DNA of 64,000 nt from a phage: sequence record PV806337.1. The stretch is one strand, 5' to 3'. Position 1 is the first letter of the stretch. Every line of letters starts with the position of its first letter. Shown here in pieces: positions 19,217 through 31,626 of the stretch. The position numbers and the translations under genes were made by a program. The notes under the pieces are model-generated. The model worked only from the letters and a program-made list of their open reading frames with translations. It did not search any database and was not told where the DNA came from.

Positions 19217-19534
19217 ATGACTTTTCATATTTTGATTGATGATGTGCGTAATCTTCACGGAATGGATATTATCATTCGAACCCCAGAAGCCGCTGTAGAG
19301 TTTCTGAATAAAACTGATACCACCGGCCATTTCGTTTATATGGATAATGACTTGGCTGTAGATGGTATGGAAGGTTATCAAATTCTTCGTTTACTCTTAG
19401 AATTTGGGCAGAGACCAAAGAAAGTGGTACTAGTAACCTCGAACCCAGTAGCTAAGCAAAATATGCGTAATGATTTGCTTGACTTAGGGTATAAAGAAAA
19501 TCCCAATCGTGTTGAATATGATTGGCAGGAGTAA
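19217..19534 (+). CDS. hypothetical protein
   Basis: ORF track 105 aa after promoter 19158-19186. Confidence 0.55.
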   Translation: MTFHILIDDVRNLHGMDIIIRTPEAAVEFLNKTDTTGHFVYMDNDLAVDGMEGYQILRLLLEFGQRPKKVVLVTSNPVAKQNMRNDLLDLGYKENPNRVEYDWQE

Positions 19535-19539
19535 AAAGA

Positions 19540-19989
19540 ATGAAGGCAGCTTTGCTTTTAGTAGCTGCCCTTACCTTCAGCTTTAGTAGTCAGGCATCGC
19601 ACGATGCAAAAGAAATAGATTGCATTGCTAAAAATATCTATTTCGAAAGTCGTGGTGAGGGCATAAAGGGAATGACGGCGATTGCACATGTTACTAAAAA
19701 CCGTGTAAACTCCGGTAAATTCCCAGATTCCTACTGTAAAGTAGTATATCAGTCTAACCAGTTCTCTTGGGTATCTAAGAGACCAAAAGTTGATAAAACT
19801 GATGAGGCTTGGCAAACCGCTAAGAATTTAGCTAGAGTGATATACTACGTTGATTTACCACAAGATCCTACATATGGAGCACTATACTTCCATAGTGGTA
19901 AAGATAAACCTTACTGGACAAAGAAGTTTAAGAAAACAACTAAGATTAAGGGACATACATTCTATAAACCTGTTGTCACTAAAACTTAA
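19540..19989 (+). CDS. secreted cell-wall hydrolase (SleB-like)
   Basis: In-frame ATG 19540 within track ORF; signal peptide; hydrolase-like core IYFESRGE. Confidence 0.6.
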   Translation: MKAALLLVAALTFSFSSQASHDAKEIDCIAKNIYFESRGEGIKGMTAIAHVTKNRVNSGKFPDSYCKVVYQSNQFSWVSKRPKVDKTDEAWQTAKNLARVIYYVDLPQDPTYGALYFHSGKDKPYWTKKFKKTTKIKGHTFYKPVVTKT

Positions 19990-20699: not shown

Positions 20700-20922
20700 A
20701 TATTCATAAATTAGGGAACAGCGAGCCGATTACGCTGAGTGCAGAATCCCAACCGGAGCGCATTGAATAGAGTCGGTGGGTTAGTTGTAAAACTAGTACA
20801 CAGGGGGCGGCAATCCCGGTTAGTGGCTAGAACGTGTAAAATGAGGCGTCTGAAACCTCTCCCCTAAACTCTTCTCTGATTTATAAATAGTGGGGTGTGG
20901 AAATCACTTATGTAGTAACACT

Positions 20923-20994
20923 GCCGTCCTAGTATAATTGGTATTATCAAGCCGTAACTGGTGGAAGATGTAGGTTCGAATCCTACGGTCGGTA
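20923..20994 (+). tRNA. tRNA-like gene, anticodon unresolved
   Basis: Canonical T-arm GTAGG-TTCGAAT-CCTAC followed by acceptor 3' strand; 5' acceptor pairs with one mismatch; no clean anticodon stem found by eye. Confidence 0.35.
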
Positions 20995-21496
20995 AGAACT
21001 GGATAACTGATGCTTTTAACATAAAAGCTTCCGAGGTTAGTTGCGCACTGCCTAAACCACGCGGTAGTTGGTTCCAGACTAACCAACCAGTCTGCTGAAT
21101 AGTTTTATTACGATTTAACTATGTCCAGGCTAAAGAAGAACTTTAGAAGGTATTCTAGGATAGTGAAGTTCTTTCTCCATATCGGAGTAGTTTTTCAAGC
21201 TATCCACAAAGTGGGAAATGCTGACATGAGAGATGTCACTAATGGTGCACAATAGCACAGGTAATTCGCGATAACTCCTGTTGAGTAGCAGCAAAAGGTG
21301 GGAAGTCATGACCCCAAGCCTAACCGAGTCCTCAATATACCGCAGGACATAACCACTAAGTCACCCTGACTTAAACTGGAAAATAATAGACGTTACTGTA
21401 TTTTGTCTTGAAATACTTAATGAGTGAGACTTATGACTCTCCCGGTATCGTCTGTATTTTTAAGAGTTTTTACGAGAGTTCTTAAAAATACTTAAA

Positions 21497-21571
21497 CGGG
21501 GTGTAGTCTAAGGGAGAGGCAGGAGTCTTCTAAATTCCTTTATGCAGGTTCGAATCCTGTCACCTCGGCCA
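21497..21571 (+). tRNA. tRNA-Arg (anticodon TCT)
   Basis: Acceptor CGGGGTG/CACCTCG, D-stem GTCT/AGGC, anticodon loop CTTCTAA, T-loop TTCGAAT, encoded CCA. Confidence 0.7.
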
Positions 21572-21605
21572 ATTTTATTAACTGTAACTAAAACAAAGGA
21601 AATAT

Positions 21606-22553
21606 ATGTTTGCTACTAAAAATATGAAAGAACTGACTTCTGAGCAGAAAGTAATTCGTACTATTAAACGTTGGGGTATTGGTGCTGTAGTTGGTTTAGC
21701 AGGTTTAATCCTAGCTTTTAATTCATATACTATTGTTTCTGATGGTACGGTTAAAACCCAAACATTCCTGGGTAAAGTAGACCCTAATCCAGTATTGCCG
21801 GGCTTCCATCTTGTAAACCCGTTTGCATCTTTCGATACTTTTAGTACAAAAGATATTGCTGTAAAATTAGATAAACTTCAGGTTCCTAGCCAGGATAAGT
21901 TTAAATCCACTGTTGACCTGACTGTTATGTTGCAGTTTGATGGTTCTAAAGCACCGATTAACCGTATTAACGCAGGTACTCAGGATCAGGCACTAGACAA
22001 GTATGTAACTGAAAAATTACTGTCTACTATTCGTGAGTTTGGTAAGTCTGTACCTAAAGCACAAGATTTATTTGATGCTAAAATTCAGGCTCAATTGCAA
22101 ACTGCAATTCAACAGGAAGTTGAAGAGTATGCGCGCCCATATGGTTACACAGTTAAGCAGGTATTCCTTCAGGATATTACCTTGCCGCCAGTAATCATGG
22201 AACAGGTACAGAATACCAAAGTTCGTGAAGAGCAAGTTAATGCTGCGAAAGCTGAACTTGCTCGCGTTGAACAGGAAGCACAGCAAAAAGTTAAACAAGC
22301 AGAAGCAGATCGTGAAGCTCGTAACAACCAAGCTATTGCTAATGAACGTGACGCAGATGCTAAACTGTACGCAGCTAAGAAAGAAGCTGAAGCTAACGCC
22401 GCATTGCAACGTACCATTACTCCTGAAATGATTCGTTGGAAACAACTGGAAGTTGAAATGATCCGTGCTCAGAAGTATCAAGGTGGTGTACCTCAGACTG
22501 TGGTAGGTACTGGCTACGATGGTCAAATGATCATGGATATGCGTAACAAGTAA
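21606..22553 (+). CDS. SPFH/band-7 (prohibitin/HflK-like) membrane protein
   Basis: ORF track 315 aa; N-terminal TM segment, SPFH-like core, Ala/Glu/Gln-rich coiled-coil tail. Confidence 0.65.
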   Translation: MFATKNMKELTSEQKVIRTIKRWGIGAVVGLAGLILAFNSYTIVSDGTVKTQTFLGKVDPNPVLPGFHLVNPFASFDTFSTKDIAVKLDKLQVPSQDKFKSTVDLTVMLQFDGSKAPINRINAGTQDQALDKYVTEKLLSTIREFGKSVPKAQDLFDAKIQAQLQTAIQQEVEEYARPYGYTVKQVFLQDITLPPVIMEQVQNTKVREEQVNAAKAELARVEQEAQQKVKQAEADREARNNQAIANERDADAKLYAAKKEAEANAALQRTITPEMIRWKQLEVEMIRAQKYQGGVPQTVVGTGYDGQMIMDMRNK

Positions 22554-22577
22554 TAGTTACACGTAATCTTCGAACCA

Positions 22578-22617
22578 AGCCCGCGTTTCCTACGAGAGCG
22601 CGGGCTTTTCTGTATTT
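22578..22617 (+). terminator. rho-independent terminator after SPFH gene
   Basis: Hairpin AAGCCCGCG...CGCGGGCTT then T-run. Confidence 0.7.
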
Positions 22618-22624
22618 AAGGCAA

Positions 22625-22665
22625 AAGAAAAAGCCCCTTACCTTTCGGCAGGGGCTTTTGTTTTT
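22625..22665. terminator. bidirectional terminator
   Basis: Hairpin AGCCCCTTACC-TTTCGG-CAGGGGCTT with A-run 5' and T-run 3'; lies between convergent gene sets. Confidence 0.65.
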
Positions 22666-22872
22666 GGTTTAGAACCATACTCTCGGTGTACAGCAACCAC
22701 CCATACGGGAGGCCAATCTTGACTGAAAATCTACTCTAGGGGGCAGGATAAGAGTAGGCTTAAAGGCAAAGGGATTGAACGCCGGTATTTGCGTAAACAT
22801 TGCTGGAGAGCAACAACGTGCTACAGGCACTGGGCAGCACGAAACAGATTTTCTGCAACACATATTTCCTCC

Positions 22873-23289
22873 TTAGGAGTTACTACCCCCATTTTGAGCT
22901 TTTGCAACTTGGCTTTGGCAGAAGCTATTAAACTTACCCATAAGTGATACAAGCTGTTTCCCATCCTCTGTCTTTGCGAAGTCTTCGAAAAGGGCTAGTA
23001 CTGCCTGTCCTTCCGCAGAAACCTGCGGTTGTTGGGTTTGTTGCTGAACTTGCTGCTGAGGCACCTGTTGCTGCATTTGTTGAGGCATTTGCGACTGCCC
23101 GCTCATTTGCTGCATCATTTGCATAGGACTCACACTTCCAGGGTTTTGCTGGAGTTGTTGCTGCATCTGTTGCGCTTCTGCTAAACGCTGTTGCAACTGT
23201 TGTAAGTAGGGGTTATCCAGACCCGGAATGGGCTGCTGGGAGCCCATACTTTGATTAAGTCCGTTATTTACAAAACCATATTTACTCAT
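22873..23289 (-). CDS. Gln-rich low-complexity protein
   Basis: ORF track 138 aa; GGAGGAG RBS upstream on reverse strand; long Q/M/P repeats. Confidence 0.55.
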   Translation of the reverse strand: MSKYGFVNNGLNQSMGSQQPIPGLDNPYLQQLQQRLAEAQQMQQQLQQNPGSVSPMQMMQQMSGQSQMPQQMQQQVPQQQVQQQTQQPQVSAEGQAVLALFEDFAKTEDGKQLVSLMGKFNSFCQSQVAKAQNGGSNS

Positions 23290-23310
23290 AATGGGCTCCT
23301 CCCCTTAATA

Positions 23311-24300
23311 TTAAGCCGGCAGTTTAGCCTGCAGACCAGCCAGAGTCTGAGTGATAGCACCAAGACTTAAAGCGATTTGATTAATTACCTGACCGTTAGC
23401 ACCGCTACCCGCAGCGATTGCTTCACGTAGGCGACATGCGTCTAACTCATCCTGGATACGCGCAGTAGTTACACCAGCGATCGCAGTCTGAAGTTCACAG
23501 CAACATTCAGCGATCTGACGTTCCAGAGAGTTCTGGTTAGCACACATCTGAGCCTGAACAGCGGCAAACTGGTTATTAGTTTGTAAAGTCTGCTGGAAAG
23601 CGATCTGTGCAGAATCAAACTTATCTTGTGCACGAGCTATCTGGTTAGCTGCGAAAGATTGATCAATCTGGCGAGAAAGATCGAACTGACCCTGAATAAC
23701 GTTGCGAGTTTCCTGGCAGATCTGATTAGACAGATTAGCACCTGTACCGTAGATCGTAGTTAGTACAGACTGAGTATCACGGCTCTGGTTTTGGGTTGTC
23801 TGGCTAAAACCATTGTTAACTGCGCTTAAAACAGCTCCAGTACCCTGGTTAGCCTCTGTACGAGTAGTGTTGATAGCTGCTAGAATACTAGCGGTATCTT
23901 GGTTCTGAAGTACTGCATCAACTGCGGTACCTTCACCAACTACACCACGTCCACCGAATCCACCGAAACCACCGAATCCGCCGGTTAATAGAGCACCGAT
24001 TAGGATAGCTCCGAATAGTCCCATACCTTCACCACCGAAAGCACCTGCGTTTGCTGGGTAACCACCCAGTAGGCCAGGGAAGCCACTAGTGAATACGTTT
24101 ACTGGTTCTTGCATTTTATGTTTTCCATATTTATGACAATGTTCATCATCGTCATCTTCTTCTTCATCATCGTGTTCACGATGTTTTTCTTCGTAGGCTC
24201 TGACCTTCTCCCACTTTTTCTTATCTGATTCCTCGTGACGGTGCAGTTCTGCTGCAACGCTAGCGACGGTCTCAGGACTCTTAGCTACTTCTTCTGTCAT
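23311..24300 (-). CDS. acidic N-terminus / Gly-rich hydrophobic / Gln-Asn-Thr-rich protein
   Basis: Track ORF 23311-24360; ATG at 24300 has AGGAGG RBS; GGFGGFGGFGG segment. Confidence 0.55.
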   Translation of the reverse strand: MTEEVAKSPETVASVAAELHRHEESDKKKWEKVRAYEEKHREHDDEEEDDDDEHCHKYGKHKMQEPVNVFTSGFPGLLGGYPANAGAFGGEGMGLFGAILIGALLTGGFGGFGGFGGRGVVGEGTAVDAVLQNQDTASILAAINTTRTEANQGTGAVLSAVNNGFSQTTQNQSRDTQSVLTTIYGTGANLSNQICQETRNVIQGQFDLSRQIDQSFAANQIARAQDKFDSAQIAFQQTLQTNNQFAAVQAQMCANQNSLERQIAECCCELQTAIAGVTTARIQDELDACRLREAIAAGSGANGQVINQIALSLGAITQTLAGLQAKLPA

Positions 24301-24507
24301 ATTTTGACACCTCCTAGTATATAGAAAATGTGTGTCTCTTTGATCACTCATCCATAACATATACTTTACACTACCCCAGCGAAAATGTCAAGGGGTCTTT
24401 AAAAATTGCCCCCGGATTTTTAGTGGGGTCACAAATTTTGGTCCTCCCCACTTATCTGCTACCCTTAAGTGCCCTATGATTTTCCTCTAAAAAGTTAAAA
24501 AATTTGA

Positions 24508-24536
24508 TTGCTTGAATGCTAAATTCTCTGTATAAT
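24508..24536 (+). promoter_or_regulatory. T5-type promoter
   Basis: TTGCTT 24508-24513, 17 bp, TATAAT 24531-24536. Confidence 0.7.
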
Positions 24537-24566
24537 ATATCTATAAATTTGAGAGAGGAACCAAAT

Positions 24567-25085
24567 ATGAATGTTGATGAGCTAACACAGCACCTCTTAT
24601 CCAGAGGATTTGATACAGATAAATATCATTGCTGGTTAAGTCCGGAAGGATGGCTAACAGTCCCGTTGTATGACTTCTCCGGGATGTTGCGAGGCTATCA
24701 GACGTATAATCCTTCTGCTCCAAAAGGTCATGGTAAGTGTCCCTTTGAAGCTAAATATTTTACTTATTCTACTACCCAGTGTGTATGGGGACTAGAAACT
24801 CTCAATGGAGATGAAAAAGTAGTATTGATCGCTGAATCTGTATTTAAGGCAGTTGCGCTACATAACGCTGGTTATCCAGCCCTGGCAATGTTAGGTTCTT
24901 CTCCAGGAAAAGCGTTATTAAAGCAACTGAAATTATTACCTTTTAAATTGGTAGCTGTCGGAGACAACGATCCTGCGGGTGAAAAATTTGCTAGAAAATT
25001 AAACGGCTTTGTTTCTCCCGTAGATGTGGATGAGATGTCTACCGAAAACTTGAAAAATTTTCTTGCTATGAAGCTAAATTTCTAA
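24567..25085 (+). CDS. Toprim-domain protein (primase-like)
   Basis: In-frame ATG 24567 after promoter 24508-24536; LIAESVF..VAVGDNDPAGEKFA resembles DnaG Toprim. Confidence 0.55.
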   Translation: MNVDELTQHLLSRGFDTDKYHCWLSPEGWLTVPLYDFSGMLRGYQTYNPSAPKGHGKCPFEAKYFTYSTTQCVWGLETLNGDEKVVLIAESVFKAVALHNAGYPALAMLGSSPGKALLKQLKLLPFKLVAVGDNDPAGEKFARKLNGFVSPVDVDEMSTENLKNFLAMKLNF

Positions 25086-25091
25086 TATAAT
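25063..25091 (+). promoter_or_regulatory. T5-type promoter embedded in 3' end of Toprim-like gene, driving tRNA cluster
   Basis: TTGCTA 25063-25068, 17 bp, TATAAT 25086-25091; tRNA-Ser starts at 25107. Confidence 0.65.
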
Positions 25092-25106
25092 ATATCTTAT
25101 AAATTC

Positions 25107-25195
25107 GGAAGAATAGCATAACGGTATTGCAGCAGATTGCTAATCTGTCGGTTTGAAATATAGCCTTGTGGGTTCGATTCCCACTTCTTCCGCCA
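25107..25195 (+). tRNA. tRNA-Ser (anticodon GCT)
   Basis: Acceptor GGAAGAA/TTCTTCC, anticodon loop TTGCTAA, long variable arm, T-loop TTCGATT, CCA. Confidence 0.75.
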
Positions 25196-25201
25196 AATTC
25201 T

Positions 25202-25279
25202 GGTTCTCAAGCTCATATGGTATGAGCACCCGGCTCATAACCGGAAGGTACGTAGGTTCGAATCCTCGGGGAGCCACCA
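25202..25279 (+). tRNA. tRNA with CAT anticodon (Met/fMet/Ile2 type)
   Basis: Acceptor GGTTCTC/GGGAGCC, D-stem GCTC/GAGC, anticodon loop CTCATAA, T-loop TTCGAAT with weak T-stem, CCA. Confidence 0.5.
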
Positions 25280-25299
25280 ACTTAATTAGGGGATTACAA

Positions 25300-25488
25300 G
25301 TGGAATTATACATAGTTTATGTTGTATTTATTCAAGATAGAGAATACCCGGATGAATATAAAAAAGGATATAGGTTAGCCAGAGCTACCTCTGAGGCCCA
25401 AGCTATGGATAAAGTGGCAGATTATATGATTATGGTAGAAAACGTATACTATATCGACTCCCTTGAAGCCTCAAAAGTAATTGACTAA
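25300..25488 (+). CDS. hypothetical small protein
   Basis: GTG 25300 downstream of tRNAs; 5' part of track ORF 25153-25488 overlaps two tRNAs and is rejected. Confidence 0.35.
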   Translation: MELYIVYVVFIQDREYPDEYKKGYRLARATSEAQAMDKVADYMIMVENVYYIDSLEASKVID

Positions 25489-25497
25489 GGAGACTAT

Positions 25498-25683
25498 ATG
25501 TCCAAGTTTCAAGAACTCAAGCAAGAGCTAGAAGAATGTGCCTGCCCTGAGTGTAGGGGAATTGGTGAAAGTTCTGATGCAGAAGCAGGAGATACTTTTT
25601 GCAATATCTGGATTTGTTCAAATTGCAACGGTACAGGTATTAATCCTAACTGCGGTGTTTCCCTAGATATTGAACGAGGATAA
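25498..25683 (+). CDS. Cys-rich putative zinc-binding small protein
   Basis: ORF track 61 aa; CxC..CPEC..CSNCNG pattern. Confidence 0.5.
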   Translation: MSKFQELKQELEECACPECRGIGESSDAEAGDTFCNIWICSNCNGTGINPNCGVSLDIERG

Positions 25684-25784
25684 TACCTGTGAAACTAAAA
25701 GATTATTATATTGGTTGGTTTGTGGGACTAGTAGTAGGATTTTCACTAGGCTATAATATGTATCAACTAATAAACTGATTACAT

Positions 25785-25861
25785 GGGGGTGTAATCGAAT
25801 TGGCATAGGTACTGGACTTAAAATTCAGGTTTTGTGGGTTCGAATCCCACCACCCCTACCA
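25785..25861 (+). tRNA. tRNA with TAA anticodon (Leu by anticodon) but short variable arm
   Basis: Acceptor GGGGGTG/CACCCCT, anticodon stem CTGGA/TTCAG, loop CTTAAAA, T-arm GTGGG-TTCGAAT-CCCAC, A73, CCA; variable region only 5 nt. Confidence 0.55.
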
Positions 25862-25876
25862 ACTTAAGGAAATAAG

Positions 25877-26044
25877 ATGTATAGACATCCACCTCCGCCA
25901 ACACGTCGTTCTAGGGAAGTCATCCTTATGGAATTGACTAAAAACTTCAAGGCAACTCTTGAAGATAGAGATTTAGGCACGGATGAAGACATTGATTTTA
26001 TTTGTAGACTATTAAAGATGAAACTGGAGAAACAACATGGCTAA
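25877..26044 (+). CDS. hypothetical small protein
   Basis: 55-codon frame read by eye; AAGGAAA RBS. Confidence 0.4.
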   Translation: MYRHPPPPTRRSREVILMELTKNFKATLEDRDLGTDEDIDFICRLLKMKLEKQHG

Positions 26045-26243
26045 TCCTGAAATTACCGCACAACGTTTCATGCTTAAAGGCATGATTGCTGAAGCAGGTA
26101 TGACTCAAGAGGTTGCAGACTTTCATAAGCAATTTCTTGATATTATAACTCTAGCTAAAGAGACTGGAGAAAGAGAACACGGTGCAGCAATTATGGCTAT
26201 ATCTCTTATTAGCCTAGACTTAGCTGAAGAATCTGGAATTTAG
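26037..26243 (+). CDS. hypothetical protein
   Basis: ORF track 68 aa. Confidence 0.5.
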   Translation: MANPEITAQRFMLKGMIAEAGMTQEVADFHKQFLDIITLAKETGEREHGAAIMAISLISLDLAEESGI

Positions 26244-26273
26244 CTCCTCCAAACAGAATTTTTAAAAATGTAC

Positions 26274-26303
26274 TTGCCTTTTGCTTTAAATTTCTGATAT
26301 AAT
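26274..26303 (+). promoter_or_regulatory. T5-type promoter
   Basis: TTGCCT 26274-26279, 18 bp, TATAAT 26298-26303. Confidence 0.6.
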
Positions 26304-26333
26304 AGTTATATAAATTGATGAAGGAGTTAACTA

Positions 26334-26609
26334 ATGCAAAATCGTGTTGTAGCAACTGGTATTGAAAGTGCAATCTGTAAATCCTGGGAAGGCTGGGAAG
26401 GTGAGATTGAATGGCTTTATTTCTATGATGTAGAACTTCTACCGGAAGTTAAAGCTAAATGTGTTGAAGCTGGCATGGCTCCAGATGCAAAAGCTGATAT
26501 TGATATTTCAATGTCTGAACTTAAAGGTCGTGTAATTACTGTTAGTGATGAGGGCGAAGAAGTCTTCGAACTTCCATTCTCCTTAACTGTCACTCCTAAG
26601 TTCGACTAA
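26334..26609 (+). CDS. hypothetical protein
   Basis: ORF track 91 aa after promoter 26274-26303. Confidence 0.55.
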   Translation: MQNRVVATGIESAICKSWEGWEGEIEWLYFYDVELLPEVKAKCVEAGMAPDAKADIDISMSELKGRVITVSDEGEEVFELPFSLTVTPKFD

Positions 26610-26645
26610 CTAATACAGCATTGGGTAAGTTCTTTAAAATTTGAC

Positions 26646-26674
26646 TTGCTCAGTGCCTTAAAACTTGGTATAAT
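26646..26674 (+). promoter_or_regulatory. T5-type promoter driving tRNA-Tyr/Glu/Trp/Phe group
   Basis: TTGCTC 26646-26651, 17 bp, TATAAT 26669-26674. Confidence 0.65.
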
Positions 26675-26737
26675 AGTTATCTAATTTGGAAACATATTTA
26701 AAAGTGTTTAAACTAGTATTTGAATACTTTTAAATAT

Positions 26738-26828
26738 GTTGGATTAGTATCGTAGAGGTAGCGAAGCAGACTGTAAATCTGCCGACTCGGAAGGGTCTCG
26801 GGTGGTTCGACTCCATCATCCAACACCA
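26738..26828 (+). tRNA. tRNA-Tyr (anticodon GTA)
   Basis: Acceptor GTTGGAT/ATCCAAC, anticodon stem GCAGA/TCTGC, loop CTGTAAA, long variable arm, T-loop TTCGACT, CCA. Confidence 0.8.
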
Positions 26829-26835
26829 AATTTAA

Positions 26836-26912
26836 GTCCTGTTAGACAAACTGGTAAAGTCACTACCCTTTCAAGGTAGGATTTGCGGGTTCGATCCCCG
26901 CACAGGACGCCA
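26836..26912 (+). tRNA. tRNA-Glu (anticodon TTC)
   Basis: Acceptor GTCCTGT/ACAGGAC, anticodon stem CTACC/GGTAG, loop CTTTCAA, T-arm GCGGG-TTCGATC-CCCGC, CCA. Confidence 0.8.
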
Positions 26913-26920
26913 TTTTCTGC

Positions 26921-26997
26921 ATTCCTAGAGTGTTACTGGACAGCATGTCGGTCTCCAAAACCGTACGGTCTAGGTTCGAGTCCTAGTAGGTTTGCCA
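26921..26997 (+). tRNA. tRNA-Trp (anticodon CCA)
   Basis: Anticodon loop CTCCAAA, T-arm CTAGG-TTCGAGT-CCTAG, CCA; acceptor stem has two U-U mismatches. Confidence 0.55.
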
Positions 26998-27003
26998 AAA
27001 TTT

Positions 27004-27078
27004 GCACCTTTAGCTGAGATGGATTAGCGCTTGCCTGAAGAGCTTGAGAGGTTGGATCGTTACCAACGGGGTGCTCCA
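27004..27078 (+). tRNA. tRNA-Phe-like (anticodon GAA), atypical
   Basis: Acceptor GCACCTT/GGGGTGC, anticodon loop CTGAAGA, non-canonical T-loop ATCGTTA, CCA; anticodon stem has two U-U mismatches. Confidence 0.45.
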
Positions 27079-27095
27079 AATTGAAGGAGCTGCTG

Positions 27096-27368
27096 ATGCA
27101 TCCTGAAAACTTCTTTATTTACTGCGCTGATAAGTCGCTGAAACGTAGAATTAACAAAGTCTATCATTATAGTGCTAGTCAACAGCCTTATGTATACGCT
27201 TTTGACGGTGATCACATTCCACTAGAACAATTATCTTGTGATTACATGATATTGAAGAACTTTGATGAGACGAAGATCTCGAGCGTTCACAATCGACAGA
27301 ATCCATTAACGTGGAAATATAAGAAGAAAAAGAAAGGCATCAAATTCTTAAAAAATGTAGTTGCTTAG
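27096..27368 (+). CDS. hypothetical protein
   Basis: ATG 27096 with GAAGGAG RBS, inside track ORF 27081-27368. Confidence 0.5.
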   Translation: MHPENFFIYCADKSLKRRINKVYHYSASQQPYVYAFDGDHIPLEQLSCDYMILKNFDETKISSVHNRQNPLTWKYKKKKKGIKFLKNVVA

Positions 27369-27389
27369 TTTCCAAAAGTTCTGTATAAT
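27361..27389 (+). promoter_or_regulatory. T5-type promoter driving tRNA-Cys
   Basis: TTGCTT 27361-27366, 17 bp, TATAAT 27384-27389. Confidence 0.7.
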
Positions 27390-27437
27390 AATTACATAAA
27401 TTGAACTGGAGAAGCAACATGACAGAACAAGATAAAC

Positions 27438-27513
27438 CGACCGTTGGCTGAATGGCTTAGGCGAAGGATTGCAAATCCTTTTTATGTGAGTTCAAATCTC
27501 ATGCGGTCGTCCA
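27438..27513 (+). tRNA. tRNA-Cys (anticodon GCA)
   Basis: Acceptor CGACCGT/GCGGTCG, anticodon stem AAGGA/TCCTT, loop TTGCAAA, T-loop TTCAAAT, CCA. Confidence 0.8.
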
Positions 27514-27534
27514 AATTACTAAAGGAAAGAAGTA

Positions 27535-28053
27535 GTGCATACAAAAGTTTTTGATAGTTTGGTAAAGAAAGGCGTTGTTACTAACGAGCCCTTCTATATA
27601 ACCGCAGAACTAATCCAGAGATTTATGGAAGAATATATAAATCTTTCAGGAACCAATGGTAATACCAAAAAGAATACAAATACTATGTATTCGAGAAAAC
27701 TTGCTGCACTTTCCTTTATAAAGTTTAAGCAGGAAAATAAACTTCCTATTTCTGAAGGTTTTGTATACTGTATTAGTAATCCTGCATGGAAAAATCAGTA
27801 TAAAATAGGTATGAGTCAAAATCCAAAAGAGAGATTAGCTCAATATCAGACTTATTCCCCTTATAGGGATTATAAGTTAGAGCATTGGTCTTTTTGGTTT
27901 GACAAACGAAAAGGTGAAAAACTAATTCACCAGTATTTCAAAGATTTAAAAGAACATGAGTGGTTTAGTATAAATTCTAGGGATCTTAGTAAATATCTAG
28001 AACGTATTAACTCTAGTTCTGACTTATATGGTTCCTTAGCTCTAATTGGTTAG
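27535..28053 (+). CDS. T5orf172 (GIY-YIG-like) domain protein
   Basis: ORF track 172 aa; FVYCISNP..YKIGMS..RL motif. Confidence 0.6.
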   Translation: MHTKVFDSLVKKGVVTNEPFYITAELIQRFMEEYINLSGTNGNTKKNTNTMYSRKLAALSFIKFKQENKLPISEGFVYCISNPAWKNQYKIGMSQNPKERLAQYQTYSPYRDYKLEHWSFWFDKRKGEKLIHQYFKDLKEHEWFSINSRDLSKYLERINSSSDLYGSLALIG

Positions 28054-28107
28054 AGCGGCATCTTGTTAAGTTGAGGGTTGCTGGTTCGAATCCTGCAGGA
28101 ACCGCCA
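28030..28107 (+). tRNA. tRNA-Asn (anticodon GTT)
   Basis: Acceptor GGTTCCT/AGGAACC perfect, D-arm GCTC-TAATTGGTTA-GAGC, anticodon loop TTGTTAA, T-loop TTCGAAT, CCA. Confidence 0.7.
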
Positions 28108-28209
28108 AATTCTGTGTAGAGTTAAGTAAACCGGTAGCCAACCAGCTATCATTGCTGACATCGAATTCAGCCATAGATACCATTTTCGTTAATAACTGAG
28201 GAAACAAGC

Positions 28210-28395
28210 ATGTCCAAGAATGTAATTGCGCAGCTAGAAGTTCATCGTGATAGCACTATCAACAATATTGAAGTTGAGAAGAAATACATAGAAGAACTTA
28301 AACATGATATACTGGTAAGTCTCAACCGTCTTAATGTACGAAAAGAGTTTCTTAAAGAACTTAATGCAGCTATTGAAAAACTCAAAGCTGAGTAA
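28210..28395 (+). CDS. hypothetical coiled-coil small protein
   Basis: ORF track 61 aa. Confidence 0.5.
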   Translation: MSKNVIAQLEVHRDSTINNIEVEKKYIEELKHDILVSLNRLNVRKEFLKELNAAIEKLKAE

Positions 28396-28404
28396 ATGAA
28401 TTAT

Positions 28405-28481
28405 GCGACCGGGGCTGGCTTGGTAATGGTACTCCCCTGTCACGGGAGAGAATGTGGGTTCAAATCCCATCGGTCGCGCCA
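28405..28481 (+). tRNA. tRNA-Asp (anticodon GTC)
   Basis: Acceptor GCGACCG/CGGTCGC, anticodon stem CTCCC/GGGAG, loop CTGTCAC, T-loop TTCAAAT, CCA. Confidence 0.8.
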
Positions 28482-28498
28482 AATAAGGTAGGTTAGCT

Positions 28499-28657
28499 AT
28501 GGAACGTAGGGAGTTTACTCCAGAAGAGATAGAGCAGATAAAAGAATCTGCTATGAAAAATGCTAGAATATCTCTGTCACTGGAAGGTATCATTATTAGT
28601 GATGTAAACTTTGAAAAAATCAAAGCCATAGCTGATGAACTGGAAAAAGTAATTTAA
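28499..28657 (+). CDS. hypothetical small protein
   Basis: 52-codon frame read by eye between tRNA-Asp and tRNA-Lys. Confidence 0.4.
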   Translation: MERREFTPEEIEQIKESAMKNARISLSLEGIIISDVNFEKIKAIADELEKVI

Positions 28658-28658
28658 T

Positions 28659-28734
28659 ACATCCATAGCTCAATGGTTAGAGCTACCGCCTCTTAAGCGG
28701 AGGGTTCTAGGTTCAAGTCCTAGTGGGTGTACCA
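28659..28734 (+). tRNA. tRNA-Lys (anticodon CTT)
   Basis: Acceptor ACATCCA/TGGGTGT, D-arm GCTC/GAGC, anticodon loop CTCTTAA, T-arm CTAGG-TTCAAGT-CCTAG, CCA. Confidence 0.6.
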
Positions 28735-28760
28735 AATTAAACTAGCACGAGAAATATGCT

Positions 28761-29108
28761 ATGATTAATGCTAAAGAAGAATTGTTACTTGCCCTAAAGA
28801 ATACTAATTCTGAAGTTAAGTGTATTAAGATAGAATTCGGTTATTATGGGGATAAAGAAGTTTGGGTATTACCCGTAGGTTATACAGAAAAAGATATTGA
28901 AGATTTTCTAGATAATCTAGACTTTAAATATGATTCTGGTTTCGGCGGACAATTGCTTTATGGTAACGTATGGTTTACCGATGGAACTTGGTTAGAACGT
29001 GGTGAATATGATGGTTCTGAATGGTGGGAATATAAGACTACACCAGCAATCCCAGAAGAATGCCGAACAATTAATGGTGAAGTAGATCGTACTTTACTAT
29101 TAAATTAA
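28761..29108 (+). CDS. hypothetical protein
   Basis: ORF track 115 aa. Confidence 0.55.
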   Translation: MINAKEELLLALKNTNSEVKCIKIEFGYYGDKEVWVLPVGYTEKDIEDFLDNLDFKYDSGFGGQLLYGNVWFTDGTWLERGEYDGSEWWEYKTTPAIPEECRTINGEVDRTLLLN

Positions 29109-29230
29109 CAAAATTTCAGTGCAGAACACGGAGCTAGCAATTCGGAAGTGCTGACTCATGATAAGCTGCCTATGTACTTGCGAAGCGGTCGTGTCCAAGA
29201 CTCGGACTCTTGCACTGAAAACAATCAAAC

Positions 29231-29352
29231 ATTCTAGCGTGGTTGATGGGGAAACCAGCTTGGCGAGGGCAGAAGCTCGTTCGATTCGAGTGAAAGAATG
29301 GTTCTCGTAAGTCCGCACAAGTGATAACAGGTTCGAGTCCTGTCTAGAATGA
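29231..29352 (+). ncRNA. 122-nt tRNA-like structured RNA (acceptor-like helix, D-arm, two T-arm hairpins)
   Basis: ATTCTAG (29231-29237) pairs perfectly with CTAGAAT (29346-29352); D-arm TGGT/ACCA; T-arm hairpins GCTCG-TTCGATT-CGAGT and ACAGG-TTCGAGT-CCTGT; no CCA; no ORF. Confidence 0.3.
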
Positions 29353-29500
29353 CACTATAAAGTTTACTTATTATGTAGGTTCCGATAGACCGGCGGGTCT
29401 ATTCTGGCATTTAAGAGAGGTCTCGCAAACTTCTTTGTCAGCCGTGGGGTTGGTAGCCTCCAGGTGGCCTACACAATAAGTAAATTTATTAAAAATTCAT

Positions 29501-29529
29501 TTGCTATTCTGCTTTATTATCTGTATAAT
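29501..29529 (+). promoter_or_regulatory. T5-type promoter
   Basis: TTGCTA 29501-29506, 17 bp, TATAAT 29524-29529. Confidence 0.7.
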
Positions 29530-29561
29530 ATATTTTATAAAGTGAAGAGAAGGAAAGCAAA

Positions 29562-29720
29562 ATGAAACACAAGATAGCTCAAGTTTTTATGGCATTATGG
29601 TGTATACCAATAGCTATAACAGCATTTAATCTAGATACTTTTACTATAGAAGAAAAATGTATCGGATTAGTTAGCGGTTTTATTATGCTGGGCTTATCTT
29701 TGCTGTGGTTAAAGAACTAA
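29562..29720 (+). CDS. small membrane protein
   Basis: 52-codon frame after promoter 29501-29529 and GAGAAGGAAAG RBS; hydrophobic. Confidence 0.45.
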   Translation: MKHKIAQVFMALWCIPIAITAFNLDTFTIEEKCIGLVSGFIMLGLSLLWLKN

Positions 29721-29724
29721 TATT

Positions 29725-29802
29725 CTCCGTGTAGCTCAGTTTGGCCAGAGCGTTTCGTTTGGGGCGATAGGGTCGGGGGTTCAAATCCTCCCACGGAGAC
29801 CA
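29725..29802 (+). tRNA. tRNA-Pro (anticodon TGG)
   Basis: Acceptor CTCCGTG/CACGGAG, D-arm GCTC/GAGC, anticodon loop TTTGGGG, T-loop TTCAAAT, CCA. Confidence 0.7.
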
Positions 29803-29808
29803 AACAAT

Positions 29809-29886
29809 TGCGGGTTAGATCTCTGGTAGAGATCGCTAGTCTCATAAGCTAGAAAGAGGTAGGTTCGATTCCTGCACCCGCTTCCA
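29809..29886 (+). tRNA. tRNA with CAT anticodon (Met/fMet/Ile2 type)
   Basis: D-arm GATC/GATC, anticodon stem CTAGT/GCTAG, loop CTCATAA, T-loop TTCGATT, CCA. Confidence 0.7.
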
Positions 29887-29906
29887 CTTTAATAGAGGAT
29901 TTCGAA

Positions 29907-30074
29907 ATGAAAGTATTTCGATTAGTAGTAAGTGACAAACGTTTAGGTAAGAATACCTCAAAATCCTTACTTGCTCATTATGGAAAAGATGAGAAAGAAG
30001 TAATGGCGGAGTTTGGGATTAATCACCCTTACTTGAAAGTTCACTCTATTAAAGAAGTATATAATGGTTACTAA
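29907..30074 (+). CDS. hypothetical small protein
   Basis: 55-codon frame read by eye between tRNA-CAT and tRNA-Lys. Confidence 0.4.
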   Translation: MKVFRLVVSDKRLGKNTSKSLLAHYGKDEKEVMAEFGINHPYLKVHSIKEVYNGY

Positions 30075-30075
30075 T

Positions 30076-30154
30076 AGATCGCTAGCTCAATAGGTTTAGT
30101 AGCATCCGACTTTTAATCGGAAGGTTCTGGGTTCGAGTCCCAGGCGATCTACCA
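30076..30154 (+). tRNA. tRNA-Lys (anticodon TTT)
   Basis: Acceptor AGATCGC/GCGATCT perfect, anticodon stem TCCGA/TCGGA, loop CTTTTAA, T-loop TTCGAGT, CCA. Confidence 0.8.
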
Positions 30155-30172
30155 ATTTCAAGAAAAACGCAG

Positions 30173-30201
30173 TTGCTTGATGCTTAATTTCTTGTTATAA
30201 T
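30173..30201 (+). promoter_or_regulatory. T5-type promoter driving ORF-free segment and tRNA-Ala
   Basis: TTGCTT 30173-30178, 17 bp, TATAAT 30196-30201. Confidence 0.7.
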
Positions 30202-30438
30202 ATTTATATAAATTGATGAGGAGAAATCCTCATCATAGTTCACTAAGGTATTAGCTCGACCTAGGACTGGCTACCAAAAAGCACGATCCCTACGATTTGG
30301 AGAAGTTCTAGATTAGTCCACTAGATTCAGCGGCAACTGAATAGTGTATTGGGTTTGCGAGATGACGCAGTTCCTTCCGCTCGAAGCGAAGGTGCTGTAG
30401 TTACGCCGAGCTAATAGCCTTAGTAAACTAAAGAATTT

Positions 30439-30517
30439 GGGGGATGGGTCTGCTAGGGGTGGACACCTCACTTGCACCGAGGACATCAGAACGATTCGAA
30501 TTCGTTATCCTCCACCA
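30439..30517 (+). tRNA. tRNA-Ala (anticodon TGC)
   Basis: Acceptor GGGGGAT/ATCCTCC, D-stem GTCT/GGAC, anticodon loop CTTGCAC, T-arm AACGA-TTCGAAT-TCGTT, CCA. Confidence 0.6.
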
Positions 30518-30522
30518 AATAC

Positions 30523-30955: not shown

Positions 30956-30959
30956 TACT

Positions 30960-31050: not shown

Positions 31051-31062
31051 AAACAATTTATA

Positions 31063-31600: not shown

Positions 31601-31626
31601 AAATTAACTTAAACAGGAAATAAAAT

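What the first reader, a model, noticed from the sequence alone, without database searches (positions are those of the whole stretch)
22560..24400. Opposite-strand island of two low-complexity proteins inside the early region
Two reverse-strand genes with strong RBSs encode compositionally odd proteins: a Gln/Met/Pro-rich 138-aa protein, and a 329-aa protein with an acidic His-rich N-terminus, a Gly-rich hydrophobic stretch (GGFGGFGGFGG) and a long Gln/Asn/Thr/Ala-rich tail. The island is bounded by a bidirectional terminator at 22625-22665 and includes a GC-richer 200-bp intergenic stretch (22660-22870). The composition suggests a phase-separating or amyloid-like assembly, or a membrane-associated structural protein.
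Basis: seen in the sequence. Interest (0 to 1): 0.55.

Follow-up and report, generated by a model that had tools for sequence, protein, structure and literature searches.

The report
Three-gene accessory membrane operon of T5
The island is a real, self-contained operon of phage T5 (genes T5.077, T5.078 and an overlooked cysteine-rich mini-gene, T5.079) that occurs in several unrelated phage groups yet is missing from about half of T5's relatives, so it is an optional add-on of unknown function rather than a core or structural part of the phage.

Summary
The window is a T5-like phage, and 22560-24400 contains the reverse-strand genes T5.077 (329 aa) and T5.078 (138 aa), each with a strong RBS. 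The unit has its own sigma-70 promoter and a bidirectional terminator.

One point is wrong. The "GC-richer intergenic stretch" is a third gene, T5.079. It encodes 64 aa with 8 Cys in four CC pairs and is translationally coupled to T5.078.

The same trio recurs in distant Demerecviridae-like contigs, Pseudomonas phage KPP23, an N4-like contig and two other phage contigs. T5.077 and T5.078 are under purifying selection (dN/dS about 0.1-0.3). Their low-complexity parts are variable linkers between conserved modules:
- T5.077: an N-terminal helix, a Gly-rich hydrophobic anchor, and a long helical domain with an invariant CCC.
- T5.078: a short N-terminal helix and a conserved 40-aa C-terminal domain.

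A shorter version of T5.077 defines a wide, wholly uncharacterised phage family (phrog_8119, phrog_9288, phrog_16490).

Roughly half of T5-like genomes have cleanly lost the cassette, so it is dispensable. It matches no known family in Pfam, NCBIfam, PADLOC, PDB or Foldseek.

My best guess is an early-expressed, membrane-anchored three-protein complex with a moron-like competitive role. The evidence does not support amyloid or phase separation. Function remains inferred.

The parts
24363..24391 (-). Promoter of the operon (T5 'P12', also 'putative early promoter T5P21'). -35 TTGACA at 24391-24386, 17-nt spacer, -10 TAAAGT at 24368-24363, followed by the discriminator ATATG.
   Evidence: This is the only sigma-70-like site the scan found in 22400-24600, matching 10 of 12 consensus positions. 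Both T5 records annotate a promoter here. The discriminator resembles the ATATT consensus that PMC7472727 reports for T5 early promoters. The 24300-24400 bin is 98-99% identical in distant T5-likes.
24301..24356 (-). 5' UTR of about 56 nt, with the RBS AGGAGG (24315-24310) 9 nt before the start codon.
   Evidence: Read directly from the sequence. A weak hairpin could pair with the RBS (-10.1 kcal/mol), but its z-score of -0.8 is not significant. The promoter-proximal part of this leader survives in phages that lost the genes.
23311..24300 (-). T5.077, 329 aa. Conserved N-terminal helix (about residues 12-46); variable acidic His-rich linker; conserved motif MQEPVNVFT.GFPG; Gly-rich hydrophobic anchor (94-117); long helical domain (about 127-326) with an invariant CCC at 266-268.
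   Evidence: ORF. PHROG phrog_8119 at E 8e-205, function unknown. Alignment A1 and its invariant columns. AF2 models are all-helical with a helix at 174/176-297/298, mean pLDDT 49 and 58. Hydropathy. dN/dS 0.14-0.19.
22873..23289 (-). T5.078, 138 aa. Conserved N-terminal helix (Y..QLQQRL.EAQ), a Q/M/P-rich linker of variable length, and a conserved 40-aa C-terminal domain (S.EGQAVLALFEEFAKTEDGKQLVS.GKFNSFCQS).
   Evidence: ORF. PHROG phrog_7894 at E 1e-79, function unknown. Alignment A2. It always directly follows the T5.077 homologue. dN/dS about 0.14-0.16 against the more distant relatives (0.25-0.32 against close ones, where dS is only 0.07-0.12).
22669..22863 (-). T5.079, 64 aa, basic (+7), with 8 Cys as four CC pairs and 14% Pro. 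Motifs are MCC at the N-terminus, CCP.PV.RCC, FNPF, and GGCC near the C-terminus.
   Evidence: ORF and RBS. T5, BF23 and Salmonella phage 5 annotate it. An MCC or Cys-rich ORF sits 2-9 nt after the T5.078 homologue, or overlaps its end, in 7 lineages. Codons of the FNPF motif differ only at wobble positions between lineages. It matches no Pfam, PHROG or NCBIfam family.
22617..22671 (.). Bidirectional rho-independent terminator that closes the operon; it also serves the converging SPFH gene.
   Evidence: Inverted repeat I1. Fold energies -23.1 (- strand) and -26.2 (+ strand) kcal/mol with z about -4.4. T5 annotation.
22620..24330 (.). Extent of the dispensable cassette: the segment missing from 'empty-site' T5-likes such as HildyBeyeler.
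   Evidence: Alignment of the HildyBeyeler and S124 junctions with both flanks of the window. About half of T5-like records keep the flanks but lack the genes.

Best explanation
**Shown**
- The island is the T5.077-T5.078-T5.079 operon of a T5-like phage.
- It is one transcription unit with its own sigma-70 promoter and a bidirectional terminator.
- Its three genes are tightly coupled, and the unit is conserved as a whole in several unrelated groups of virulent phages of Gram-negative hosts.
- Many close relatives of T5 have cleanly deleted it, so it is an accessory, moron-like cassette that lytic growth does not require.

**Inferred from anatomy**
- T5.077 is anchored in the inner membrane by its Gly-rich hydrophobic segment.
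- It probably oligomerises through a helix of about 120 residues (roughly 18 nm) that carries the invariant CCC.
- T5.078 looks like a flexible tether with two conserved ends. T5.079 is a basic peptide of CC pairs. Neither has an export signal.
- Both occur only with T5.077 versions that have the extra N-terminal helix, so they probably dock there on the cytoplasmic side.
- The conserved cysteines in all three proteins suggest thiol- or metal-bridged contacts.

**Inferred function, least certain**
- The operon is probably expressed early.
- The complex probably alters the host envelope to the phage's advantage in nature. The most likely role is exclusion of, or competition with, other phages or defence-related membrane effectors.
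- It is not a replication, lysis or virion component.
For: - **Identity and annotation:**
- **Promoter, terminator, RBSs:**. The divergent neighbour promoter P15A is experimentally early, and early promoters share an ATATT discriminator (PMC7472727).
- **Purifying selection:**
- **Trio conserved with 2-9 nt spacing or overlap:** seen in T5-likes, L004, L005, KPP23/L008, the N4-like L036, L037 and L038.
- **Co-occurrence:** the N-terminal extension goes with T5.078 and T5.079 in 7 of 7 lineages. Short-form homologues (L006, L009, L010, eiAU, phiWae15) lack both and have other partners.
- **Hydrophobic anchor:** conserved across the family.
- **Dispensability:** 446 records carry the flanks but only about 223-238 carry the genes. 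Two different deletion junctions exist, and one keeps the promoter remnant.
- **Not a lysis cassette:** L037 and eiAU carry a separate holin, endolysin and Rz (PMC3025963).
Against: - There is no experimental or homology-based functional evidence of any kind. All database searches were empty.
- Topology is unresolved:
  - In short-form homologues the N-tail has essentially no K or R, one R follows the anchor, and the protein has an odd number of Cys. These features favour N-out/C-in.
  - In T5.077 the N-terminal extension is about 95 residues and charged, and its putative cytoplasmic partners argue for N-in.
  - The low-charge N/Q/T/S/A-rich helical domain looks extracytoplasmic.
- Hydropathy of the anchor is borderline in some members (1.06-1.5).
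- An exclusion system would not usually be conserved across phages with different entry routes.
- Expression timing is inferred from promoter sequence only.
Confidence: 0.35

Rival explanations
1. Lysis-related envelope device. T5.077 would be a type II inner-membrane protein whose helix of about 18 nm spans the periplasm, like an i-spanin or the large periplasmic domain of the T4 holin, with cysteines forming intermolecular disulfides. The operon would tune lysis timing or envelope disruption.
For: - It has a single N-proximal anchor plus a long helical domain with conserved Cys.
- A helix of about 123 residues roughly matches the width of the periplasm (inference).
- Some homologues lie next to lysis genes: L037 is divergent from a holin-lysozyme-Rz set, L006 is near a VanY gene, and L009 is near an Amidase_3 gene and a holin-like gene.
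- Lysis modulators are typically dispensable.
Against: - T5.079 has no signal peptide or lipobox, so it is not an o-spanin.
- L037 and eiAU already encode an Rz-type spanin and a holin.
- In T5, KPP23 and the N4-like contig the operon is not next to lysis genes.
- The short-form N-tail lacks K/R and the Cys count is odd (3), which fits a cytoplasmic C-domain better.
- There is no hit to holin or spanin Pfam/PHROG families.
Confidence: 0.12
2. Metal- or thiol-handling complex. The CCC helix, the CC-pair peptide, the His-rich N-terminus and the Met-rich linker would together bind soft metals (Cu(I), Zn, Ni) or buffer thiol/redox stress at the membrane during infection.
For: - Conserved Cys are present in all three proteins: invariant CCC, FCQS, and MCC/CC pairs.
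- Epseptimavirus versions carry His runs such as HHYHHHHHEHY.
- T5.078 of T5-likes contains M-x-x-M-type tracts.
- T5.079 has 12% Cys and no hydrophobic core.
Against: - The His-rich and Met-rich tracts are lineage-specific and absent from distant homologues.
- There is no similarity to metallothioneins, copper chaperones or ferritin-like families.
- No reason is known why diverse virulent phages would need such a function.
Confidence: 0.12
3. The 200-bp stretch (22669-22863) acts mainly as RNA or DNA, for example a structured 3' element of the mRNA or a signal linked to the nearby major nick. On this reading the ORF is secondary, or the stretch has a dual function.
For: - Within T5-likes the stretch is 92-96% identical while the flanking genes are 80-88% identical.
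- Its dS is 0.04-0.18 against 0.45-0.87 for T5.077 (and for T5.078 against the two more distant relatives) in the same genome pairs, and most comparisons show no third-position excess.
- The 261-nt 3' region, terminator included, folds with z -3.6.
- The T5 major nick at 32.6% lies about 70-260 bp away.
Against: - Seven lineages keep an ORF starting with MCC or rich in Cys at the same place, with an RBS and tight coupling.
- Their nucleotide sequences cannot be aligned, yet they share peptide motifs whose codons differ at wobble positions.
- A compensated frameshift preserves the frame at the C-terminus (TPRVWF versus NKSIWF).
- Fold z-scores of the ORF region alone range from -2.7 to +0.7 across lineages, no better than control tiles.
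- There is no Rfam match.
Confidence: 0.15
4. One reading: the two proteins form a phase-separated or amyloid-like assembly, or a structural (virion) component.
For: - T5.078 has an uncharged tract of about 50 residues that is about 49% Gln.
- T5.077 has GGF repeats and a Q/N-rich tail.
- The best, though non-significant, Foldseek hit in PDB is vimentin at E 8.2.
Against: - The Q-rich tract varies in length and becomes short and Pro-rich in distant homologues. The conserved parts are the non-repetitive modules.
- The tail is predicted to be helical, and its large-hydrophobic (I/L/M/F/V/W/Y) periodicity is 3.6 residues rather than the heptad value of 3.5.
- The operon has an early-type promoter, lies in the early region, and is absent from half of the relatives.
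- The text of PMC8624392 cites 16 virion-associated T5 proteins. Whether T5.077 or T5.078 is among them could not be checked here.
Confidence: 0.06

Closest known systems
Phage 'moron' or accessory cassettes that encode membrane proteins for superinfection exclusion (for example T5 llp, T1/phi80 cor, HK97 gp15, T4 imm/sp; recalled from general knowledge, not tested here)
   Same: It is a self-contained unit with its own promoter and terminator, inserted in the opposite orientation among other genes. Lytic growth does not need it, and close relatives differ in having or lacking it. It encodes a membrane-anchored protein. In eiAU the short-form homologue sits directly after the tail-fibre genes, a classic moron position.
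   Different: There is no sequence or fold similarity to any of these proteins. It has three components where those systems usually have one. The same trio is conserved across T5-like, N4-like and KPP23-like phages that use different receptors and entry routes. No exclusion phenotype has been tested.
Two-component spanins (lambda Rz/Rz1 type)
   Same: An N-proximal membrane anchor is followed by a long helical domain with conserved cysteines. A small Pro- and Cys-rich protein is encoded just downstream.
   Different: The small protein lacks a lipoprotein signal and lipobox. The large protein is about twice the usual i-spanin length and has an extra N-terminal domain of about 95 aa. The operon coexists with genuine Rz genes and is usually not in the lysis cassette.
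Uncharacterised PHROG families phrog_8119, phrog_9288 and phrog_16490 (T5.077-like) and phrog_7894 (T5.078-like)
   Same: Direct membership: T5.077 hits phrog_8119 at E 8e-205 and T5.078 hits phrog_7894 at E 1e-79. Short-form relatives hit all three of the T5.077-like PHROGs.
   Different: These families carry no functional annotation, so membership says nothing about mechanism. T5.079 belongs to no PHROG.
Membrane-anchored cytoskeletal or scaffold proteins with one N-terminal anchor and a long helical or linker region (for example ZipA, EzrA, flotillin/SPFH; recalled, resemblance only)
   Same: It shares the bitopic architecture with a short acidic N-tail in the short-form family, a long helical cytoplasmic-type rod, and a partner with a P/Q-rich flexible linker. 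An SPFH gene lies convergently next door.
   Different: No homology was detected. The helical domain is unusually poor in charged residues. The neighbouring SPFH gene is retained in phages that lost the cassette, so the two are not functionally tied.

Membership tests
Two-component spanin (i-spanin / o-spanin) | The o-spanin is an outer-membrane lipoprotein with a signal peptide and a lipobox Cys. | tested here: not met
   T5.079 starts MCCRKSVSCC. It has no hydrophobic h-region (maximum 19-mer hydropathy 0.97) and no lipobox. The same is true of the six other lineage versions.
Two-component spanin (i-spanin / o-spanin) | The i-spanin has an N-terminal TMD followed by a periplasmic coiled-coil domain. 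| tested here: inconclusive
   A hydrophobic anchor and a long helix are present. However, about 95 residues precede the anchor, and charge and Cys-parity patterns in the family favour a cytoplasmic C-domain. Topology cannot be tested with these tools.
Two-component spanin (i-spanin / o-spanin) | It is part of the lysis cassette and is the phage's only spanin. | tested here: not met
   L037 carries Phage_lysis (Rz), a lysozyme and a holin besides the module. eiAU has a separate endolysin, holin and Rz. In T5 the neighbours are tRNA genes, an SPFH gene and a Toprim gene.
Holin / antiholin families | Match to a holin or antiholin profile (Pfam, PHROG). | tested here: not met
   No such hit at E up to 1 in Pfam or 0.1 in PHROGs.
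   The Q-rich tract is about 50 aa, interrupted by Pro, variable in length, and reduced to a short P/Q linker in distant homologues (proteins of 101-146 aa). No dedicated predictor (PLAAC or a disorder tool) was available.
Intermediate-filament-like / canonical coiled-coil protein | Heptad (3.5-residue) hydrophobic periodicity and structural similarity to coiled-coil rods. | tested here: not met
   The strongest periodicity of large hydrophobic residues is 3.6. The only PDB Foldseek hit is vimentin at E 8.2, probability 0.03.
cAMP-dependent protein kinase catalytic subunit (GenBank label 'kapc' for T5.078) | Protein kinase catalytic domain. | tested here: not met
   No kinase domain in Pfam or NCBIfam. 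At 138 aa the protein is too short, and its best Pfam hits have E above 0.06 to unrelated families. The label appears in AY587007 and has been copied to other records.
Anti-phage defence or known candidate defence proteins (PADLOC) | Match to a PADLOC model. | tested here: not met
   No hit for any of the three proteins or for short-form relatives.
Known structured RNA in the 'intergenic' stretch | An Rfam match, or a consistently stable fold or covariation. | tested here: not met
   Only sub-threshold terminator-like Rfam hits. Fold z-scores of the ORF region are -2.7 to +0.7 across 7 lineages and resemble the controls.
Moron-like accessory cassette / superinfection exclusion | Autonomous promoter and terminator, dispensable, patchy distribution. 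| tested here: met
   Promoter and terminator. The cassette is deleted in about half of T5-likes, with two different junctions. It also occurs in unrelated phage groups.
Moron-like accessory cassette / superinfection exclusion | Confers exclusion of, or resistance to, other phages. | not testable with these tools
   This needs plaque or EOP assays with the operon expressed or deleted.

The most novel reading that the evidence does not exclude
The trio would be a previously unrecognised, widely distributed phage membrane system. A glycine-zipper-anchored helical rod with an invariant Cys triplet (the core of a large dark-matter family: phrog_8119, phrog_9288, phrog_16490) recruits a tether protein and a translated CC-pair micropeptide through thiol or metal bridges. 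The system would perform a new kind of envelope manipulation, such as exclusion, counter-defence or membrane stabilisation, shared by T5-like, N4-like and KPP23-like phages.
Probability: 0.25. Interest if true: 0.7.

Novelty: new variant of a known kind. Interest (0 to 1): 0.42.

Why it matters
T5 is a classical model phage, yet this operon has sat in its annotation for twenty years as three 'hypothetical proteins'. In some records one of them carries a spurious kinase label.

Three results turn a compositional oddity into a defined target for experiments:
- The unit has three genes.
- It is conserved across unrelated virulent phages.
- It is cleanly lost in half of T5's relatives.

Natural isogenic-like pairs with and without the cassette already exist, for example among the BASEL phages. 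T5.077 is also an entry point into a large, entirely uncharacterised family of phage membrane proteins. T5.079 is a candidate translated micropeptide of a kind that annotation pipelines routinely miss or, as in KPP23, call in the wrong frame. If the function is exclusion or counter-defence, it would matter for phage cocktails built from T5-like phages.

Tried and rejected
**Database and structure searches that found nothing**
- Pfam, NCBIfam and PADLOC returned no hits, and the PHROGs hits were function-unknown families only.
- PDB sequence search gave only chance hits.
- Two AF2 runs gave low confidence (pLDDT 49 and 58) and extended helices. Foldseek against PDB and BFVD found nothing significant.
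- Rfam gave only terminator-like sub-threshold hits.

**Tests that came out negative or unhelpful**
- RNA-structure explanation for the T5.079 stretch: z-scores were inconsistent across lineages.
- hhalign of T5.078 against the neighbours of short-form homologues showed no relation.
- The GTDB genome scan for prophage copies found one 2-kb MAG contig only. The first attempt failed because the alignment was too diverse.

**Literature**
- No paper mentions T5.077, T5.078 or T5.079, or T5p074-079.
- The Bas33 omics dataset could not be used because Bas33 (HildyBeyeler) lacks the cassette.
- The supplements of the phiR2-01 proteome paper are not held.
- The accessory-gene screen paper does not cover it.

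**Ideas rejected**
- Foreign origin on GC grounds: GC3 of T5.077 equals the background.
- Linkage to the T5 'endolysin' T5.083: that gene is a SleB-like hydrolase about 3 kb away, and the module's neighbours differ in other phages.
Full report
**Identity of the window.** The 3.7 kb around the finding is 100% identical to several Tequintavirus genomes (SUT_E420, T5_ev212, EC148) and about 88-97% identical to T5 itself. In the T5 reference NC_005859 the island corresponds to T5.077, T5.078 and T5.079. That record annotates them with 'promoter P12', an 'efficient bidirectional rho-independent transcription terminator' and a major DNA nick site alongside. The flanking genes are the Toprim protein T5.076 and the SPFH 'lipoprotein' T5.080. 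The second T5 record, AY587007, calls the promoter 'putative early promoter T5P21'. It splits T5.077 into two ORFs, labels T5.078 'kapc, cAMP-dependent protein kinase catalytic subunit', and places 'major single-stranded nick 3, 32.6%' at the adjacent hairpin. The ORFs are therefore already in public annotation, all without a function. No paper in the searchable library mentions them.

**Check of the observation.** Both reverse-strand ORFs exist as described.
- T5.077 should start at the ATG at 24300, which has AGGAGG 9 nt upstream. The longer 349-aa ORF begins inside the -10 region of the promoter.
- T5.078 has GGAGGAG 6 nt before its ATG.
T5.078 is 28% Gln. T5.077 has a net charge of -9 and 7 His in its first 62 residues. 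Its most hydrophobic 19-mer, GLFGAILIGALLTGGFGGF, scores 1.72 on the Kyte-Doolittle scale. Its tail is rich in A, Q, N and T.
- The inverted repeat at 22617-22671 folds as a terminator on either strand: -23.1 and -26.2 kcal/mol, z about -4.4.
- A second, + strand terminator at 22577-22607 ends the SPFH gene.
- The only sigma-70-like promoter in the region is TTGACA-17-TAAAGT at 24391-24363 on the - strand.
- Both genes are under purifying selection. Against STG2, EH3 and ESCO30, dN/dS is 0.14-0.19 for T5.077, and for T5.078 against STG2 and EH3, where changes fall mostly at third codon positions. Against ESCO30, T5 and L031, T5.078 is nearly identical (dS 0.07-0.12) and the ratio, 0.25-0.32, rests on few changes.

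**The error in the observation.** The 'GC-richer 200-bp intergenic stretch' is a gene. ORF 22669-22863(-) encodes 64 aa: MCCRKSVSCCPVPVARCCSPAMFTQIPAFNPFAFKPTLILPPRVDFQSRLASRMGGCCTPRVWF. Its AAGGAGG RBS overlaps the T5.078 stop codon. T5, BF23 and Salmonella phage 5 annotate it.

The strongest evidence that it is translated is comparative. Every lineage that carries T5.077 and T5.078 homologues also has a small Cys-rich ORF starting 2-9 nt after the T5.078 homologue or overlapping its end. In six of the seven lineages that ORF begins with MCC. The lineages are:
- T5-likes, with 25 sequence variants, all 64 codons long.
- Two distant Demerecviridae-like contigs, L004 and L005.
- Pseudomonas phage KPP23 and a KPP23-like contig. 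In KPP23 the annotated ORF072 is in the wrong frame.
- An N4-like contig, L036.
- L037 and L038.

The versions share an N-terminal MCC, CC pairs (CCP.PV.RCC in T5 and L037), an FNPF motif and a C-terminal GCC. The nucleotide sequences are otherwise unalignable, and the FNPF codons differ only at wobble positions: TTCAATCCC, TTCAACCCA and TTCAATCCG, each followed by TTT. Two C-terminal variants in T5-likes (TPRVWF and NKSIWF) differ by a compensated frameshift that restores the reading frame.

**Anatomy of the proteins.** Alignments show that the 'low-complexity' parts are variable linkers between conserved modules.
- T5.077 has a conserved N-terminal helix (about residues 12-46, pLDDT 85-93 in the second model). 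An acidic His-rich tract follows, which varies by indels and reaches HHYHHHHHEHY in Epseptimaviruses. Then come a conserved MQEPVNVFT.GFPG motif and the Gly-rich hydrophobic segment. The rest is a helical domain that includes one predicted helix of about 123 residues and an invariant CCC at 266-268.
- T5.078 has a conserved helix (Y..QLQQRL.EAQ), a Q/M/P linker that makes the protein 101-146 aa long and is short and Pro-rich in distant homologues, and a nearly invariant 40-aa C-terminal domain with one invariant Cys.
- T5.079 is basic (+7), with 12% Cys and 14% Pro.
- The higher GC of T5.077 comes from Gly and Ala codons (GC1 0.63, GC3 0.35, against a background GC3 of 0.335). It does not point to foreign origin.

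**Distribution.** Word-indexed and exhaustive searches find T5.077 relatives only in phage-sized contigs. None has a functional name, Pfam domain or solved structure.

The exhaustive profile search recovered 179 proteins at E up to 0.001. Many of the stronger hits are 240-290 aa 'short forms'. These begin at the PV.V motif, have the Gly-rich anchor, and share NFTTLSSINGLGRD and CCCE.K..I..DG..TRALIN motifs. They map to phrog_8119, phrog_9288 and phrog_16490, all of unknown function.

Short forms never have T5.078 or T5.079 next to them. They are followed instead by a beta-rich protein of about 99-121 aa. In Edwardsiella phage eiAU and Aeromonas phage phiWae15 the conserved series is phrog_9288, phrog_9157, phrog_8329 and phrog_7239.

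The N-terminal extension of T5.077 co-occurs with T5.078 and T5.079 in 7 of 7 lineages. It is absent in 5 of 5 short-form contexts. This is the basis for proposing that the two small proteins dock on that extension.

The long-form trio sits in very different genomic settings:
- among tRNA genes and next to SPFH or NadR/PnuC genes in T5-likes
- divergent from the terminase gene in KPP23
- between the virion RNA polymerase and replication genes in the N4-like contig
- divergent from a holin-lysozyme-Rz cassette in L037

It is usually its own transcription unit, and in several of these contexts it lies on the strand opposite to its neighbours.

**Dispensability.** In the phage collection, 446 records match the flanking SPFH, Toprim and tRNA sequence, but only 223-238 contain the operon.
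- In HildyBeyeler (Bas33) the SPFH gene and its terminator are joined directly to the remnant of the P12 promoter and the promoter-proximal part of its leader. The deletion runs from about 22620-22633 to about 24315-24330 and removes the bidirectional terminator, all three ORFs and the T5.077 RBS.
- S124 has a different, larger deletion.

The cassette has therefore been lost at least twice and is not needed for lytic growth on laboratory hosts. This is also why the Bas33 transcriptome and proteome dataset could not be used to test expression.

**Expression signals.** P12 has a consensus -35 element, a 4-of-6 match at -10, and the discriminator ATATG. Klimuk et al. (PMC7472727) report that all T5 early promoters carry ATATT in the discriminator, and that the divergent neighbouring promoter P15A is experimentally early. 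Early expression is therefore likely but inferred. The 24300-24400 bin is 98-99% identical even in Epseptimaviruses.

**What it is not.**
- **Spanin pair.** T5.079 lacks a signal peptide and lipobox. L037 and eiAU carry genuine Rz genes and holins elsewhere.
- **Kinase.** No kinase domain is present.
- **PADLOC defence protein.** No model matches.
- **Canonical coiled coil or intermediate-filament protein.** Large-hydrophobic periodicity is 3.6, and the only PDB Foldseek hit is vimentin at E 8.2.
- **Rfam RNA.** No family matches.
- **Prion or amyloid.** The Q-rich tract is short, variable and not conserved.
- **Virion role.** An early-type promoter, an early-region location and patchy presence all argue against it. 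The T5 virion protein list itself could not be checked here.

**Most likely mechanism (inferred).** I propose an early-expressed complex anchored in the inner membrane by T5.077. T5.077 would oligomerise through its long helix. T5.078, a two-ended tether, and T5.079, a CC-pair peptide, would bind its N-terminal extension. The conserved cysteines in all three would provide thiol or metal bridges.

The cassette is autonomous, dispensable and patchily distributed, and in eiAU it occupies a moron-like position after the tail fibres. I therefore rank a competitive role in the field first, at about 0.35. That role could be exclusion of other phages or interference with envelope-associated defence or stress. 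Lysis modulation and metal or thiol handling each rank at about 0.12.

Topology is unresolved, with arguments on both sides:
- In short forms the N-tail has essentially no Lys or Arg and is acidic, one Arg follows the anchor, and most have exactly three Cys. These features suggest N-out/C-in.
- The T5.077 N-terminal extension is about 95 residues and charged, and its presumed cytoplasmic partners suggest N-in. The low-charge N/Q/T/S/A-rich helical domain resembles extracytoplasmic proteins.

**Unexplained.** Within T5-likes the T5.079 stretch is more conserved at the nucleotide level (92-96%) than its coding neighbours (80-88%). Its dS is 0.04-0.18 against 0.45-0.87, and most comparisons show no third-position excess. 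A central stretch of about 130 nt is almost invariant across 25 variants.

RNA-fold z-scores do not explain this. A second function of this DNA or RNA remains possible, as does a recent sweep. The stretch lies next to the terminators and to T5's major nick at 32.6%.

**Verdict.** The amyloid or phase-separation reading is unsupported. The ORFs are already annotated, so the island itself is not new. Three points appear to be unreported:
- It is a three-gene unit.
- It is conserved across unrelated phage groups and repeatedly lost.
- It opens onto a large family of uncharacterised phage proteins.

Interest is moderate. The target is well defined and testable, but its function is unknown and nothing yet points to a surprising mechanism.

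Noticed in passing
window 22577-22607 (+), GCGC at 22598-22601: The + strand terminator hairpin of the SPFH gene contains the GCGC nick consensus. It corresponds to T5's 'major single-stranded nick 3, 32.6%' (AY587007) and 'major DNA single-chain interruption' (NC_005859). One of T5's five major nicks therefore sits at the edge of the cassette, and the hairpin is kept in phages that lost the cassette.
   Followed up: partly
window 22669-22863 and 22500-22800: Synonymous sites in T5.079 and the adjoining terminator region are nearly frozen among T5-likes (92-98% nucleotide identity against 80-88% in the flanking genes). A consistent RNA fold does not explain this.
   Followed up: partly
window 22873-23289 (T5.078) in public records: Several GenBank records label this 138-aa Q-rich protein 'cAMP-dependent protein kinase catalytic subunit' (kapc). 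The label appears in AY587007 and has been propagated. It has no kinase domain, so the label is spurious.
   Followed up: yes
window 23311-24360; AY587007 38160-38950: The annotation of T5.077 is inconsistent. Some records use the 349-aa start, which lies inside the promoter. AY587007 splits the gene into ORF072 and ORF073.
   Followed up: yes
L012 (Pseudomonas phage KPP23) 6936-7118 versus annotated ORF072 6938-7132: In KPP23 the small gene after the T5.078 homologue is annotated in the wrong reading frame. The MCC... Cys-rich frame is the conserved one.
   Followed up: yes
window 24301-24358 (-) and L039 (HildyBeyeler) 1380-1450: In the T5.077 leader a weak hairpin can pair with the AGGAGG RBS (-10.1 kcal/mol, not significant), and the 24300-24400 bin is 98-99% conserved. 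The promoter and the upstream part of the leader persist as a remnant in phages that have deleted the genes (the RBS itself is deleted).
   Followed up: partly
L042 (eiAU) 5632-7486; L043 (phiWae15) 4704-6585; L006, L009: Short-form relatives of T5.077 belong to a different conserved gene series of four unknown-function proteins (phrog_9288, phrog_9157, phrog_8329, phrog_7239). The series is found in unrelated phages and lies after the tail-fibre genes in eiAU.
   Followed up: partly
window 19522-19989 (+): The gene annotated 'endolysin' in NC_005859 (T5.083) encodes a protein of about 150 aa with an N-terminal signal-like sequence. Its homologue in L004 hits Hydrolase_2 (SleB-like). It is not part of a holin-endolysin cassette here.
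   Followed up: no
window 21606-22553 (+) and 24516-25085 (+): The cassette's neighbours are an SPFH/Band 7 membrane protein with an A/E/Q-rich C-terminal helix (Pfam E 2e-17) and a 189-aa Toprim-only 'primase' fragment-like protein. Both are retained when the cassette is lost.
   Followed up: partly
window 21497-33377: There are 21 tRNA genes on the + strand, interspersed with small ORFs. The 20700-21490 stretch corresponds to T5's annotated 'RNAX, stable RNA with unknown functions'.
   Followed up: no
phage collection hits: Records named 'Listeria phage LM 4-14-1/4-11-1' and 'Campylobacter phage A148/C13' carry T5-like sequence with 94% or higher identity or full T5.077 homologues. They are probably mislabelled or contaminant T5-like phages.
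   Followed up: no
L013/L014/L035 (Epseptimavirus-type loci): In Epseptimaviruses the Toprim gene next to the cassette is replaced by NadR-like nicotinamide-nucleotide adenylyltransferase and PnuC transporter genes. This interval is a hotspot for accessory-gene exchange.
   Followed up: no
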